Assembly (NCBI GenBank): GCA_964625515.1
Contig: CAZVBP010000002.1
Span: 1-25,536 of the forward strand
Direction: 5' to 3'
Length of the DNA: 25,536 nt
From: an uncultured Gammaproteobacteria bacterium
GTDB lineage: Bacteria; Patescibacteriota; Patescibacteriia; UBA9934
The position numbers and the translations under genes are program-made. This document shows positions 5,676 through 9,673 of the stretch, in pieces. The notes below the pieces were generated by a model, which saw nothing but the letters and a program-made list of their open reading frames with translations, did no database searches and was not told the origin of the DNA. Every line of letters begins with the position of its first letter. Within the stretch, counting starts at the first letter, position 1.

Positions 5676-8600
5676 TCATGGAGGGACTCGAGAAAAATAC
5701 CATCAAGGCCTTCGCAAAACGCTGCATGGCGATGTTTGCGGTTTTGTCGTTGAGCCTTACCGCGATCACGGCAGCTTTTCATGATGCGCGTGCAGCAACG
5801 CCTCCACGAATTTTGATGTATCAGGGACGATTGCTGAATTCCAACGGCGTTCCGCTTTCCGATAGCACCGCCACGATGTCGTTTGCGCTGTATGATGCGT
5901 CGAGTGCGGGGACGTGTTTGTGGTCGAACAATTCCGACACGTGTGCGTCGGTCACAACGAGATCTGTGACGTTGACCGCAGGGCTTTTCTCTGAAGCGCT
6001 TGGTGATACTGGGGCGTCGTATGCCGCTATTGCTGAGTCGGTATTCATGAACAATGCCACCGTCTATCTTGAAGTAACGGTGAACGGCGAAACGCTCACG
6101 CCACGAAAACAGATGCTTGCGGCGCCGTATGCAATGAACAGTGATTCGCTCGATGGATACGGAACGACGACGAGCGGCGCAACATCGTCGAAGGTTCCTG
6201 TGTTTGATACGTCAGGAAATTTGGTGATCACTGGCGCGCCACAGGGGACCGGTGTGAGCCAAGGATCGCTCTACGTGAACCCTGCATCTGCTGGCGTTGC
6301 CGCGAACGAGATCCTGCTTGGCGTTGCCGTGGAAGGATCGTCGCGATTTTCTGTGGATGAAGATGGCGATACAAGCGTTGCGGGAAACTTGATGGTGGGT
6401 GGCTCCACGCTTGCTGCGCCATTCAGCGTCGATTACGTCAACGGTATTGTGAATGTTGGTGATGGCACAAGCACGAACTCGATCATTGATTTTCGTGCGT
6501 CGGATGGATCGACGGGGCGGTTCTCTTATATTCCCGGCGATTCATTTCGTGTGACCGACGGGTACTTTTCCTATAGTGGCCCAGGAACGCTTCCGAGTTT
6601 ATCGAGTGAAGCGATTGAATATTTTTCGATGACTGAGGCGATCTCGGGAACTTCCGGGAACAATTTATCCACGATCGGCATGTACGGGACGTATGGAGAG
6701 ATTACATATTCCGGAATTGAGGGGAGCGGCACGACCGCCCATGAGGTGAATAGTATTGAGGGCTTGTTGAGTATCTCCGGAGCATCGTCAACGCTCACGT
6801 GGGGGAGCGCGATCGAGGGGTCTGTGACGAATACCTCAACGAATGCTTCCTTGCTTCAATCGAATGGTTTCCTTACTGGCGTTACGGGGAACGTGACGCA
6901 CAACGGAACTGGTACGACCATCGGTGACGTTCGTGGTGTGTATGGCTTAATTACCTCATTATCCGGCACGATTACGGATGCATTTGCGGTGATCGGTCGG
7001 TTTAGCACGCCCACAGGATCGGTGACGAACGGATATGCAATTTATGGAAAGAATACGGAAGCTGGCACCCAGCGGTATGGCGTGTACGGCCAAGCGTCGG
7101 GAGGAACAAATAATTATGCGGGGTACTTCACTGGCGCTCAGGTGCAAATTGATACCGACACCACGCCAGACACCCCAACGCTTGCGGACGGCACGGGCGA
7201 TTTATATATCTCCGATGATCTTGAGGTGCGCGGTGATGTGTTGTTTCACGAGATTGGCGCGATGAATACGTTTACTTTCCGGAGCTCGCTTGCCACCACT
7301 CAGGCTGCTGCGCAGTTCATCACCGACGGACTCACCAGCGGCGTGGGTTTGCGTGTGGTACGGGGAGATGATGCTGGCGTCGCATTTACCGGTAATGTGG
7401 TTCATATTGAACAAGATGATTTTGGATCGGATAACAGCGGCACCGCGCTGCAAATCGATCAAGCAGGAGGCGGCACTGCCGTTGGGCTTCGCATTACGCA
7501 GTCCACCACCAGTGCACACGTGGCAAATTCCACTGGAAATAACGCGCTCGTGATTGACGTGAATGAAGCGGCAAGCACGGATAACGCAATTGTGATGCGA
7601 TCGGATGCAGACGGAACTGCAGACACAGAATTCCGTGTGACCACCGCCGGCGACGCATATGCCGACGGCGCATTCACCGGTGCGGGCGCCGACTTTGCAG
7701 AATATTTCCCCACAAACGATGCAACGCTCGATGATTTTCATCTCGCATGTATTGATGCGAGCGATGCGGAGAGCGTCAAACGTTGCGAGGCGGGTAATCA
7801 CGAAATCGTTGGTGTGATCTCCACGAACCCTGCATTCATTGGAAATCTTGTTGGTGATGGCACGGAGGACTATCGCAATGATGCGCGGTATCGCTTGGTT
7901 GGATTAACCGGACAGATCGATACACTTGTTACTACGGCCGATGGAGCAATTGCCGTAGGCGATCCGATTACGACATCATCATCGGCCGCTGGATACGGCG
8001 CAAAAGCATTCGGACCGGTGCGCATTGCGGGGTTTGCACTTGAGGCGCTTGCATCGGGGACGGGAACCATTCGTGTGCTTGTGAGCCCACAATGGTACGG
8101 GAGCGATGTGCTGAGCGCATCGGGGTCGAGTACTGATGTTTCCGGAAATCTTGGTCTTCGCGCGTTGCAGCCCGCAACGGCGTCATCACCCCTTGCGGAT
8201 TCGTCCTCGCTTCTCTTGAAGGGTTCTGTATGGAACGGTGCGGGCGCAAGTGACCGCGCAATGGGAATGAAAACGGTTGTGAGCGCGGTGGACGACTATC
8301 GGCTTTCGATCATGAACACAGGAGATAGTGAAGTCGCATCGATCAACGATGACGGCGACATGATGATTTCCGGAAAGTTGTACCCGTCGGATCGCGGCGT
8401 CATGCAGCAGGAGAAATACATTTACTACGATGGATCAGAGGGCGGTGGGGGAGATTTCATGCGCACGAATGCATCGGGATGGTCCACGGGCTCGTACGAC
8501 TTTGCTGAGATGTTCCCGTCACCCGATGCGCTTTCACCAGGGGAACTGGTGGTGTTTGGTGACGGATCAGAACAAATCAAGCGCTCACCTGGCGAGACGT

Positions 8601-9673
8601 ATAGCCCAACCATCGCGGGTATTGTCTCGACGCGCCCAGGATTTTTGGCGGGGGAGAATCGTTCTGGGAGTTACCCAATTGCACTTGCGGGTCGCGTGCC
8701 AACCTATGTGTCGGCAGAAAATGGGCCGATCAACATTGGTGATCCGCTTACGTCATCGTCGCGCCCTGGATATGCGATGAAGGCAACGAAGCCGGGACCG
8801 ATTGTGGGATATGCCGCACAGGCGTTCTCGGGCACCACGGGGAGCATTGTGGTGTATGTGAATGTGTCCCATTACAATGGCGCGCCAACCGCGGAAGCGC
8901 CCGCGGCGAATAACAGCATTTCCAAATTCTCCGATGACGTTGAGCAATTTGATACAAACGGCGTACTCAATTTCCGCGGTGGTCAGCTTATTGCGATCGG
9001 ATCGATGGGGAGCGCGAATGCCACGTGGCGATTGGAAACGTCGGGCGATTTCATTACCTCGGGCCGCGTGATCCAACTTGTGAAATCCGGTGACGGTCGA
9101 GACGTGGAGACGTACCCCGTCACATCGCGAGAAATGACGGTGCAGCTTGCTGGTTCGGTGCGATTAAATGGCGGCACGGCCGAGGTGCTTTTTGCAGACG
9201 TCGATTCTGAATTCACAAATATCGTCGACAGCGTGCCAACCTATCGCGCATTCGTCACTCCTCACGCCGCAACCGGTGCGCTCTTTGTAACGGAACGCAC
9301 GGTTCACGGCTTTACGATCATGGAGTCTGGGTCCCAGTCGGTTGATGTTGAAGTGGATTGGATGGTGATTGCATATCGACGAGATTTTGCGCCAATCGAA
9401 ACACCGGTGATCGATGATGCGCCAGCGCAGGAAAATAGTGTGCCCGATGCAGCATCGTCAGATGAATCGGGCGTTTCATCTGAAAATGTGGCGTCCGACG
9501 ATGTGCAGAGCGTTGATCCTGTCCCAAGCACCGATGTGGTCGTTGGAAACGATACGGTGACCATCGATGATCCGCTTCTCACCGCAGAACCTGATGCGAA
9601 TGCGGGCGCTCCCGCGGATTCTGTACCATCATCGGAGACAATCGATTCGGCCGTTTCTGATCCTACCTTGTAA
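5672..9673 (+). CDS. Giant secreted tailspike/tail-fibre-like adhesin with two peptidase-G2 (intramolecular chaperone)-like domains (1333 aa)
   Basis: Signal peptide. N-terminal 'YQGRL...G.F...LG...LTPRKQMLAAPYA' domain. GVYG/AIYG beta-repeat region. Two DFAE-initiated domains at 7691-8098 and 8498-8875. C-terminal 'AGSVRL..G.AEV.F...FVTP...LFVT..T..GFTI...DW.VIA.R' domain and an acidic Asp/Ser/Pro tail. Confidence 0.8.
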   Translation: MIMEGLEKNTIKAFAKRCMAMFAVLSLSLTAITAAFHDARAATPPRILMYQGRLLNSNGVPLSDSTATMSFALYDASSAGTCLWSNNSDTCASVTTRSVTLTAGLFSEALGDTGASYAAIAESVFMNNATVYLEVTVNGETLTPRKQMLAAPYAMNSDSLDGYGTTTSGATSSKVPVFDTSGNLVITGAPQGTGVSQGSLYVNPASAGVAANEILLGVAVEGSSRFSVDEDGDTSVAGNLMVGGSTLAAPFSVDYVNGIVNVGDGTSTNSIIDFRASDGSTGRFSYIPGDSFRVTDGYFSYSGPGTLPSLSSEAIEYFSMTEAISGTSGNNLSTIGMYGTYGEITYSGIEGSGTTAHEVNSIEGLLSISGASSTLTWGSAIEGSVTNTSTNASLLQSNGFLTGVTGNVTHNGTGTTIGDVRGVYGLITSLSGTITDAFAVIGRFSTPTGSVTNGYAIYGKNTEAGTQRYGVYGQASGGTNNYAGYFTGAQVQIDTDTTPDTPTLADGTGDLYISDDLEVRGDVLFHEIGAMNTFTFRSSLATTQAAAQFITDGLTSGVGLRVVRGDDAGVAFTGNVVHIEQDDFGSDNSGTALQIDQAGGGTAVGLRITQSTTSAHVANSTGNNALVIDVNEAASTDNAIVMRSDADGTADTEFRVTTAGDAYADGAFTGAGADFAEYFPTNDATLDDFHLACIDASDAESVKRCEAGNHEIVGVISTNPAFIGNLVGDGTEDYRNDARYRLVGLTGQIDTLVTTADGAIAVGDPITTSSSAAGYGAKAFGPVRIAGFALEALASGTGTIRVLVSPQWYGSDVLSASGSSTDVSGNLGLRALQPATASSPLADSSSLLLKGSVWNGAGASDRAMGMKTVVSAVDDYRLSIMNTGDSEVASINDDGDMMISGKLYPSDRGVMQQEKYIYYDGSEGGGGDFMRTNASGWSTGSYDFAEMFPSPDALSPGELVVFGDGSEQIKRSPGETYSPTIAGIVSTRPGFLAGENRSGSYPIALAGRVPTYVSAENGPINIGDPLTSSSRPGYAMKATKPGPIVGYAAQAFSGTTGSIVVYVNVSHYNGAPTAEAPAANNSISKFSDDVEQFDTNGVLNFRGGQLIAIGSMGSANATWRLETSGDFITSGRVIQLVKSGDGRDVETYPVTSREMTVQLAGSVRLNGGTAEVLFADVDSEFTNIVDSVPTYRAFVTPHAATGALFVTERTVHGFTIMESGSQSVDVEVDWMVIAYRRDFAPIETPVIDDAPAQENSVPDAASSDESGVSSENVASDDVQSVDPVPSTDVVVGNDTVTIDDPLLTAEPDANAGAPADSVPSSETIDSAVSDPTL

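What the first reader, a model, noticed from the sequence alone, without database searches (positions are those of the whole stretch)
7685..8875. Two tandem phage-appendage-type intramolecular chaperone (peptidase G2-like) domains in a cellular adhesin
Seen: two homologous units, GADFAEYF...VGVISTNP.F.G...VGL.GQ.......G.IAVGDP.TTSS..GY..KA......G.ALE and YDFAEMF...AGIVSTRPGF.AG...IALAGRVP......GPI.IGDPLTSSS.PGYAMKA..PG.IVG.A. Known: D(Y/F)AE-initiated peptidase G2 domains fold trimeric beta-helical phage neck appendages (phi29/GA-1 type) and then self-cleave using the Glu. Inference: the protein is a signal-peptide-exported trimeric tailspike mimic with two separately chaperoned segments. It may self-process into two or three polypeptides, one of which (the C-terminal beta domain plus acidic tail) could be shed. 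No phage genes are nearby, so the module appears domesticated.
Basis: partly seen in the sequence, partly recalled or inferred. Interest (0 to 1): 0.65.

Follow-up and report, generated by a model that had tools for sequence, protein, structure and literature searches.

The report
Tandem phage-type self-cleaving modules in fibre
A secreted 1333-residue surface fibre of an ultra-small (Candidatus Uhrbacteria, CPR) bacterium carries two internal copies of the folding-and-self-cutting domain that phage phi29 uses to build its tail appendages; this doubled layout is fixed in a very large, undescribed family of CPR surface proteins, but the cutting itself is untested.

Summary
Observation confirmed. 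ORF 5672-9673 (+) holds two homologous ~130-aa units starting at D674 and D943 (37% identity, E 2e-19). Both are phi29 gp12 D4 / Peptidase_G2-type domains. Isolated unit 1 passes Pfam PF11962 (29 bits, cut-off 25). Profiles of both units align their D-F-A-E onto gp12 D692-E695. An AlphaFold model of unit 1 has gp12 D4 (3gqh) as best match among 48,161 PDB chains (Z 14.4). D, A and E are invariant in both units. 231 of 234 family members carry exactly two units. The module occurs in 114 of 301 sampled Patescibacteria genomes.

The gene is chromosomal, in a conserved five-gene surface operon with weak Pam-pilus resemblance and no phage genes. After unit 2 come a tailspike-C-terminal/lectin-like domain and an acidic tail.

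Interpretation partly supported. Trimerisation, cleavage at A673|D674 and Y942|D943, and shedding remain inference.

This is a new variant of a known kind: cellular fibres with phage intramolecular chaperones, as in Bdellovibrio MAT. This scan has already noted the same cassette on other DNA (at least 27 genomes). No paper describing it was found.

The parts
5672..9673 (+). Whole gene: 1333-aa secreted fibre protein (P0001)
   Evidence: Single ORF. More than 400 homologues, named where named as Uhrbacteria/Patescibacteria. The only carrier of the units in its 877-kb genome.
5672..5797 (+). Signal-peptide-like N-terminus (aa 1-42; basic n-region, hydrophobic core aa 18-36, A-R-A before ATPP)
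   Evidence: Read from the sequence and hydropathy. An equivalent N-terminus is seen in 120 homologues. No signal-peptide predictor was available.
5798..6151 (+). Conserved N-terminal beta domain, weakly like the Bdellovibrio MAT fibre N-domain
   Evidence: NF053851 Bdello_MAT_N, E 1.9e-6, 27.7 bits, below the cut-off of 60. Conserved across 120 homologues.
6152..7690 (+). Variable Gly/Ser/Thr-rich shaft (aa 161-673), including the YG-repeat region
   Evidence: This part varies in length: the first DxAE lies at aa 398-1623 in different homologues. Its last 74 aa show 34% mean pairwise identity, the lowest of the segments compared. Composition. Only aa 600-673 were modelled.
7691..8107 (+). G2 unit 1 (aa 674-812); predicted scissile bond A673|D674; motif D674-F-A-E677
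   Evidence: PF11962 at 29 bits, cut-off 25. Profile A1 hits 3gqh_A at E 3.2e-4. hhalign E 1.7e-5. Foldseek top hit is 3suc. VIA Z 14.4 and 13.8 to gp12 692-854. D, A and E are invariant.
8108..8497 (+). Inter-unit shaft (aa 813-942), beta-rich
   Evidence: Model pLDDT about 70-92. Weak fold likeness to Bdellovibrio MAT fibre segments Bd2439, Bd2133 and Bd1334, Z 5.3-6.1. 54% mean pairwise identity.
8498..8875 (+). G2 unit 2 (aa 943-1068); predicted scissile bond Y942|D943; motif D943-F-A-E946
   Evidence: Homologous to unit 1, E 2e-19. hhalign to gp12, E 9.3e-5, with DFAE in register. S-Y-D-F-A-E-M-F is invariant in 36 sequences. Same fold as unit 1 in the model; matches gpD-like cement proteins at Z 7.7-10.6. 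Most conserved segment, 68%.
8876..9121 (+). Low-confidence linker plus small beta region (aa 1069-1150)
   Evidence: pLDDT 37-72.
9122..9382 (+). C-terminal beta-sandwich (aa 1151-1237) like phage tailspike C-terminal domains and H-type lectins
   Evidence: VIA: cyanophage Pam1 tailspike 687-758 at Z 10.4, 25% identity. Also K64-1 S2-4, K1 lyase, Sf6 and LKA1 tailspikes, R-pyocin tip, discoidin and Helix pomatia agglutinin, Z 5.5-7.7. phrog_6616 tail protein, E 2.5e-4.
9383..9670 (+). Acidic, Pro/Ser-rich low-complexity tail (aa 1238-1333; 23% D+E, no K/R)
   Evidence: Composition. Comparable acidic tails are seen in homologues.

Best explanation
The gene encodes a Sec-exported surface fibre of a Candidatus Uhrbacteria (Patescibacteria/CPR) cell, built from phage tail-fibre parts. 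Its order is: conserved N-terminal domain, variable shaft, then a conserved C-terminal cassette. The cassette consists of G2 domain, short shaft, second G2 domain, tailspike-type C-terminal sandwich and acidic tail. SHOWN: the two units are true relatives of the phi29 gp12 D4 auto-chaperone (Peptidase_G2, gpD-like fold). They keep the D-x-A-E motif that sits at the gp12 cleavage site. They are an old duplication kept as a fixed pair. The gene is cellular. INFERRED: after export, where cytoplasmic chaperones are not available, each G2 module trimerises first and templates the trimeric beta-structured shaft segment just upstream of it. Each then cuts its own N-terminal peptide bond (A673|D674 and Y942|D943) using the motif Glu/Asp, as in gp12. 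This would give up to three homotrimeric products: aa 43-673, 674-942 and 943-1333. Whether the products separate or stay stacked non-covalently is unknown. phi29's release step needs ATP, which is unlikely outside the cell, and the CPR units lack the ~40-aa insert of the phage domains.
For: Internal homology E 2e-19. PF11962 above its cut-off for isolated unit 1. Profile A1 hits the gp12 C-terminal fragment, whose chain starts at D692 with DFAEYFE, and also 'chaperon domain D4' of tailspike Dpo31. hhalign places both DFAE motifs on D692-E695. The gp12 sequence reads W-S then DFAEYFE at that point. Unit 1 model has pLDDT 85; its best match among 48,161 chains is 3gqh at Z 14.4, rmsd 2.6 A, 116 aa, 25% identity, starting exactly at the Asp. 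D, A and E are invariant in 36+36 family sequences and in an alignment with 7 phage G2 domains. The motif is kept in distant classes. Exactly two units occur in 231 of 234 proteins. CPR units form one clade against phage domains (support 100/99), and the two units of one protein are never sisters. Conservation is highest in the cassette and lowest in the shaft, as expected for an assembly module. Chromosomal synteny is conserved and there are no phage genes. Precedent: Bdellovibrio MAT fibres fold and self-cleave with a phage S74 chaperone (PMC10769870).
Against: No cleavage or trimer data exist for any member. Whole-protein Pfam scanning reports nothing, and unit 2 alone fails Pfam. Sequence-level E-values to gp12 are modest (1e-4 to 1e-5). 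All phage G2 domains examined sit at the very C-terminus, whereas these are internal and are followed by conserved folded domains, which is odd for a discarded pro-region. The fold is also that of stable, non-cleaving capsid cement proteins (ECOD class quoted in PMC13397572). The catalytic roles of gp12 D692 and E695 are recalled from Xiang et al. 2009, which could not be read here. Models are monomers.
Confidence: 0.6

Rival explanations
1. The two units are non-cleaving structural nodes. They are gpD/cement-like trimer clamps retained in the mature fibre, and D-x-A-E is conserved for folding or packing rather than catalysis.
For: The fold is shared with capsid decoration proteins of HFTV1, Sf11, XM1, phi29 gp8.5, BB1, Pam3 and TW1 at Z 8-11.6. 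There is a weak PF09956 Phage_cement_2 hit. The second halves of both units hit gp8.5 by sequence. The units are internal and are followed by conserved domains. There is no extracellular ATP for a phi29-type release.
Against: The best structural match is gp12 D4, clearly above the cement proteins (Z 14.4 against 11.6 or less). The DxAE motif is absent from the cement proteins in the alignments shown, yet it is invariant here and sits exactly at the domain's first residue, as at the gp12 cleavage site.
Confidence: 0.25
2. Only one unit is catalytically active. One possibility is that the highly conserved unit 2 cuts while the faster-evolving unit 1 is a retained pseudo-protease; the reverse is also possible. 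Either way the protein yields two products, not three.
For: The units differ strongly in constraint: 68% against 47% mean identity. Unit 1 of the Uhrbacteria clade sits on a long branch. The residue before the Asp differs: an invariant Tyr in unit 2, a small residue in unit 1.
Against: D, A and E are invariant in both units, and unit 1 is the one that passes the G2 HMM and structural tests directly.
Confidence: 0.1
3. The gene is a tail spike or fibre of a prophage or phage remnant, not a cellular surface protein.
For: Domain relatives are phage proteins: gp12 D4, tailspike C-terminal domains, and a PHROG tail-protein hit.
Against: It has a signal-peptide-like N-terminus. The neighbours give no PHROG structural hits. 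The same operon lies between polA/holA/rpsT/rmuC and ychF in a relative. The orf832-fibre-orf776 order holds in 71 of 80 Uhrbacteria loci. tblastn of the units against 50,697 phage records finds essentially nothing.
Confidence: 0.03

Closest known systems
Bacillus phage phi29 gp12 pre-neck appendage, C-terminal auto-chaperone domain D4 (Pfam PF11962 Peptidase_G2, MEROPS G2; PDB 3gqh, 3gqk, 3suc)
   Same: Same fold (Z 14.4). The same D-[FY]-A-E-x-[FY] start is aligned with the gp12 cleavage site. The 'iGViS' and 'vGL.GQ' motifs are shared. The domain is placed directly after a beta-structured shaft.
   Different: Here there are two copies, both internal, in a Sec-exported cellular protein. The ~40-aa insert of the phage domains is missing. 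Conserved folded domains and an acidic tail follow. Cleavage and ATP dependence are untested.
Bdellovibrio bacteriovorus MAT (mosaic adhesive trimer) fibres (Caulton et al. 2024, PMC10769870)
   Same: A cellular, signal-peptide-bearing, phage-tail-fibre-like fibre with a conserved N-terminal beta domain. A phage-type intramolecular chaperone has been shown to self-cleave in Bd3182. Shaft segments are of similar fold.
   Different: MAT uses a single C-terminal S74 (SDxxxK) chaperone or none, not G2. In MAT the C-terminal tips are the variable part. Here the C-terminal cassette is the conserved part and the middle varies. The N-domain match is sub-threshold.
Phage capsid cement/decoration proteins of the gpD-like (beta-tulip) fold, e.g. 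phi29 gp8.5 N-base, HFTV1, TW1
   Same: Same fold class (Z 8-11.6). The second-half motif G-x-I-x-x-G-D...G-Y...G-x-A-x-E is shared with gp8.5.
   Different: No capsid context. They lack the N-terminal DxAE motif. They are free-standing small proteins, not modules inside a fibre.
Pam pilus operon of CPR bacteria (Troman et al., bioRxiv 10.64898/2026.03.03.709456)
   Same: A CPR-specific surface operon. The preprint notes a 'tail fibre-like protein' that consistently co-localises with pam genes. Here the first gene has a weak Pam-pilin-C match, and the second has a signal peptide plus a C-terminal TM helix like PamC/D.
   Different: The pilin match is far below the cut-off (14.7 against 55 bits). 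The preprint does not describe the fibre protein or any G2 domains. It reports Pam pilins mainly in Saccharimonadia and Microgenomatia.

Membership tests
Peptidase_G2 (PF11962; phi29 gp12 D4) | HMM score at or above the Pfam gathering threshold, unit 1 | tested here: met
   Isolated aa 655-830 scores 29.0 bits against cut-off 25, E 8.6e-7, covering profile positions 33-99 of 228. Caveat: nothing is reported when the whole 1333-aa protein is scanned. About 20 of 120 homologues carry a precomputed PF11962 hit.
Peptidase_G2 (PF11962; phi29 gp12 D4) | HMM score at or above the Pfam gathering threshold, unit 2 | tested here: not met
   No Pfam hit for aa 925-1090 even at E<=10. Membership rests on homology to unit 1 (E 2e-19) and on hhalign to gp12 (E 9.3e-5).
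Peptidase_G2 (PF11962; phi29 gp12 D4) | Three-dimensional fold of gp12 D4 | tested here: met
   Unit 1 model: 3gqh_A is rank 1 of 48,161 chains, Z 14.4, rmsd 2.6 A, 116 aa, gp12 residues 692-854. Z 13.8 in the 646-aa model. Foldseek top hit is 3suc. Unit 2 has the same fold in the model, but only its cement-protein matches are listed.
Peptidase_G2 (PF11962; phi29 gp12 D4) | D-x-A-E at the first residues of the domain, aligned with gp12 D692-E695 (cleavage after S691) | tested here: met
   Both units. D, A and E are invariant in 36+36 family sequences and 7 phage domains. The catalytic roles of these residues are from memory of Xiang et al. 2009, which could not be read here.
Peptidase_G2 (PF11962; phi29 gp12 D4) | Position at the extreme C-terminus of a phage tailspike/appendage protein | tested here: not met
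   The units start 660 and 391 residues before the C-terminus of a cellular protein. The seven phage domains examined all end within a few residues of the CDS end.
Peptidase_G2 (PF11962; phi29 gp12 D4) | Autoproteolysis after trimerisation, and ATP-dependent release | not testable with these tools
   Needs protein biochemistry. The CPR units lack the ~40-aa insert present in the phage domains. Its relation to ATP binding is unknown to me.
Peptidase_S74 (PF13884; endosialidase/T5/GA-1-type chaperone) | HMM match | tested here: not met
   No PF13884 hit in any segment at E<=10 or in the whole protein.
Bdellovibrio MAT fibre family | Conserved N-terminal domain (NF053851) | tested here: inconclusive
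   E 1.9e-6 but 27.7 bits against cut-off 60, covering profile positions 7-81 of 162.
Phage cement protein (PF09956, gpD-like fold) | HMM match above threshold; free-standing capsid protein | tested here: not met
   18.5 bits against cut-off 24. Fold likeness only, Z 8-11.6. No capsid genes nearby.
Pam pilus system (context of the operon) | Pam pilin C-terminal domain (NF058581) in a neighbouring gene | tested here: inconclusive
   orf 1462-2376: 13.7-14.7 bits against cut-off 55, E 0.013-0.05.

The most novel reading that the evidence does not exclude
The double G2 cassette is an extracellular, chaperone-free assembly line. It turns one exported polypeptide into three stacked homotrimers held together only non-covalently: the fibre, a connector, and a lectin-like head with an acidic tail. 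This would give CPR cells a break-away or hand-over joint in their host-attachment organelle. The organelle would be shared by a third or more of Patescibacteria and built together with a Pam-like pilus.
Probability: 0.2. Interest if true: 0.8.

Novelty: new variant of a known kind. Interest (0 to 1): 0.55.

Why it matters
Patescibacteria/CPR make up a large share of bacterial diversity and live attached to other cells, yet how most of them attach is unknown. This cassette marks a very large family of secreted giant fibres. A search with the unit-2 profile found 23,580 representative proteins at E<=1e-3. The module was found in 38% of 301 sampled genomes of the phylum. The family is built with phage receptor-binding-protein technology. 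If the two G2 modules do self-cleave, they explain how long trimeric beta-fibres can fold outside a cell that has few chaperones. They also define exact processing sites that can be tested in E. coli without culturing the organism. Finally, the finding extends the Peptidase_G2 family from a C-terminal phage pro-domain to an internal, duplicated module of cellular proteins.

Tried and rejected
1. Whole-protein Pfam scan: no hit. Only segment scans revealed G2.
2. phmmer of the whole protein against PDB sequences: nothing.
3. tblastn of the units against 50,697 phage records: nothing for unit 1, and one marginal hit (Sinorhizobium phage Phosso, E 5e-3) for unit 2. There is therefore no recent phage donor.
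4. Foldseek with the 646-aa multi-domain model missed gp12 altogether. The single-domain model and the Foldseek-independent search were needed.
5. S74 assignment rejected: no HMM hit.
6. Prophage origin rejected on synteny and PHROGs.
7. Xiang et al. 2009 (PMID 19450535, PMC2692858) could not be read, and no held paper names the catalytic residues. That point rests on memory.
8. Literature searches for Peptidase_G2/PF11962 together with Patescibacteria, and for 'intramolecular chaperone' together with Patescibacteria, found no description of this family.
9. The unit tree did not resolve unit 1 and unit 2 as two clean clades. Only 'no recent within-protein duplication' is claimed.
10. No multimer prediction was possible, so trimerisation is inferred from relatives only.
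Full report
OBSERVATION. The finding lies inside one long ORF, window 5672-9673 (+), 1333 aa. The tetrapeptide DFAE occurs twice, at aa 674 (nt 7691) and aa 943 (nt 8498). The segments that follow are homologous: BLASTP of aa 660-830 against aa 925-1100 gives 37% identity over 138 residues, E 2e-19.

WHAT THE UNITS ARE: SEQUENCE. A Pfam scan of the whole protein reports nothing. The isolated unit 1 (aa 655-830) does hit PF11962 Peptidase_G2 at 29.0 bits (cut-off 25, E 8.6e-7), with a weak PF09956 phage-cement hit. 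Unit 2 alone hits nothing, and no segment hits PF13884/S74 even at E<=10.

Profiles built from 36 homologues of each unit (A1, A2) were searched against PDB sequences.
- A1 finds the phi29 gp12 C-terminal fragment 3gqh (E 3.2e-4). That chain begins at D692 with DFAEYFE.
- A1 also finds 'chaperon domain D4' of tailspike Dpo31 (28nb).
- The second halves of both units find the phi29 head-fibre base gp8.5.

I fetched phi29 gp12 itself. hhalign places both DFAE motifs on gp12 D692-E695 (E 1.7e-5 and 9.3e-5). In an alignment with seven phage G2 domains (phi29, SPbeta-like, phi105, two staphylococcal phages, a Lachnospiraceae phage, cyanophage S-SM2), the D, A and E of the motif and the Gly of 'iGViS' are invariant. 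The CPR units lack a ~40-aa insert of the phage domains.

WHAT THE UNITS ARE: STRUCTURE. An AlphaFold2 model of aa 600-1245 (56-sequence alignment, pLDDT 81) shows two similar beta domains with pLDDT above 90. Foldseek with this large model missed gp12.

A model of unit 1 alone (pLDDT 85, pTM 0.79) gave the following.
- Foldseek ranks 3suc (pre-mature gp12) first, with 3gqh third.
- The Foldseek-independent search of 48,161 chains ranks 3gqh_A first: Z 14.4, rmsd 2.6 A, 116 residues, 25% identity. Model residue 21 (D674) aligns to gp12 residue 692.
- The same search with the large model again puts 3gqh first, at Z 13.8.
- Next come phage capsid cement/decoration proteins (HFTV1, Sf11, XM1, phi29 gp8.5, BB1, Pam3, TW1; Z 8-11.6). 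This agrees with the ECOD placement of the G2 domain in the gpD fold, quoted in PMC13397572.

The GA-1 appendage chaperone (3GUD) is of the T5/K1F S74-like type, whereas phi29's has a different beta-stranded body (PMC4690869).

REST OF THE PROTEIN. The parts are as follows.
- The N-terminus looks like a Sec signal peptide.
- It is followed by a conserved beta domain weakly matching the Bdellovibrio MAT N-domain (27.7 bits, cut-off 60).
- The middle is a Gly/Ser/Thr-rich shaft of very variable length among homologues.
- Between the units lies a 130-aa beta segment with weak fold likeness to MAT fibre shafts (Z 5-6).
- After unit 2 come a poorly modelled linker and a small beta region.
- Then comes a beta-sandwich (aa 1151-1237) that resembles the C-terminal domains of phage tailspikes (cyanophage Pam1, Z 10.4, 25% identity; K64-1 S2-4; K1 lyase; Sf6), the R-pyocin tip and H-type lectins. 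It also hits phrog_6616 'tail protein'.
- The last 96 residues are acidic and free of Lys and Arg.

FAMILY AND CONTEXT. Homologues number more than 400 in the word-indexed search. Where named, they are Uhrbacteria, Patescibacteria or Parcubacteria MAGs. A pattern scan of species genomes returns mostly Candidatus Uhrbacteria records.
- The D-x-A-E pair is kept in 110 of 120 homologues.
- HMM counting gives exactly two units in 231 of 234 proteins.
- An exhaustive search with the unit-2 profile finds 23,580 representative proteins at E<=1e-3 and 806 at E<=1e-30. The best 150, which are 211-4619 aa long, almost all have two matched stretches.
- In a sample of 301 genomes of the phylum, 114 have a match at E<=1e-5, mostly in open frames of 1,000-11,000 aa.
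- In the window's own 877-kb genome (86% complete), this ORF is the only carrier.

In a tree, all CPR units separate from the phage domains (support 100/99). The two units of one protein are never sisters, so the duplication is old rather than recent. Deeper order is unresolved. Mean pairwise identity is 34% in the shaft just before unit 1, 47% in unit 1, 54% between the units, 68% in unit 2 and 50% in the C-terminal sandwich. The cassette is thus the conserved part and the shaft the variable part.

The gene is chromosomal. In a 64%-identical relative, the same five genes lie between polA, holA, rpsT and rmuC on one side and ychF on the other. The order orf832, fibre, then a 12-TM+TPR protein holds in 71 of 80 Uhrbacteria loci. 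The neighbours have no PHROG structural hits.

The first gene of the operon has a sub-threshold match to the CPR Pam-pilin C-domain. The second gene has a signal peptide and a C-terminal TM helix, as described for PamC/D. The Pam preprint notes an uncharacterised 'tail fibre-like protein' that co-localises with pam operons. In the phylum sample, a Pam-pilin hit lies within about 20 kb of a unit hit on the same contig in at least nine genomes: G293, G265, G260, G106, G015, G055, G064, G219 and G134. No claim here rests on the unpublished genome G154, which only contributes to the Pam tally.

MECHANISM. Shown: identity of the domains, conservation of the cleavage-site motif, the fixed tandem layout, and the cellular context. 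Inferred: after export, each G2 module trimerises and templates the beta-shaft upstream of it, then cuts the bond before its Asp (A673|D674, Y942|D943). This follows gp12, where cleavage follows trimerisation (quoted in PMC13397572; PMC3357383), and Bdellovibrio MAT fibres, where an S74 chaperone was shown to self-cleave.

The main rival is that the units are retained gpD-like trimer clamps. Their internal position, the conserved domains after them and the lack of extracellular ATP favour this. The invariant D-x-A-E at the exact first residues of both domains argues against it. I put about 0.6 on self-cleaving chaperones, 0.25 on non-cleaving nodes and 0.1 on only one active site.

COMPARISON AND NOVELTY. 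Cellular fibres using phage intramolecular chaperones are known (Bdellovibrio MAT with S74; MyRF in animals). A G2-type module that is internal, duplicated and followed by a tailspike-type end domain was not found in the literature searched. I class it as a new variant of a known kind.

Earlier notes of this scan, read only after my own analysis, describe the same cassette and the Pam-like operon in at least 27 other genomes. They agree with this reading but are not independent evidence.

Noticed in passing
window 1462-3169: The first two genes of the operon look like a cut-down Pam-type pilus pair. orf 1462-2376 has a signal peptide and a sub-threshold CPR_Pam_pilin_C match at its C-terminus (E 0.013-0.05, 14 bits against cut-off 55). 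orf 2339-3169 has a signal peptide, weak Ig-like hits and a C-terminal TM helix (aa 256-274), like PamC/D.
   Followed up: partly
window 9682-12012: The downstream gene encodes about 12 predicted TM helices plus C-terminal TPR repeats, with no Pfam hit for the membrane part. It follows the fibre gene in 71 of 80 Uhrbacteria loci. It is possibly a glycosyltransferase/ligase-like assembly factor.
   Followed up: partly
window 3177-5675: The 832-aa upstream protein has an N-terminal hydrophobic segment and two CarboxypepD_reg-like domains near its C-terminus. It is conserved directly upstream of the fibre gene, with an ATGA start/stop overlap at 5672-5675.
   Followed up: partly
other Patescibacteria genomes, e.g. 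G024:C1:134575-135000, G181:C14:750110-750457: Many small open frames of about 260-300 aa match only the part of the unit profile after the DxAE motif (profile positions ~30-145). They may be free-standing gpD/cement-like proteins or a different use of the fold.
   Followed up: no
loci L019, L021, L022, L089 and others: Many MAG records titled 'uncultured Gammaproteobacteria bacterium' carry this Uhrbacteria-type operon. One is a 1.0-Mb 'chromosome'. The organism labels look like placeholders or errors.
   Followed up: no
phylum sample: Pam-pilin-C hits lie within about 20 kb of G2-unit hits on the same contig in at least nine sampled genomes (e.g. G293 C4, G265 C7, G260 C2, G064 C1). This fits the preprint's remark on a co-localised tail-fibre-like protein. 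No statistics were done, and related genomes are not independent.
   Followed up: partly
P0007 aa 1284: One homologue has a third D-Y-A-E about 295 aa after the second. HMM counting still gave two units, so it is probably a chance motif.
   Followed up: partly
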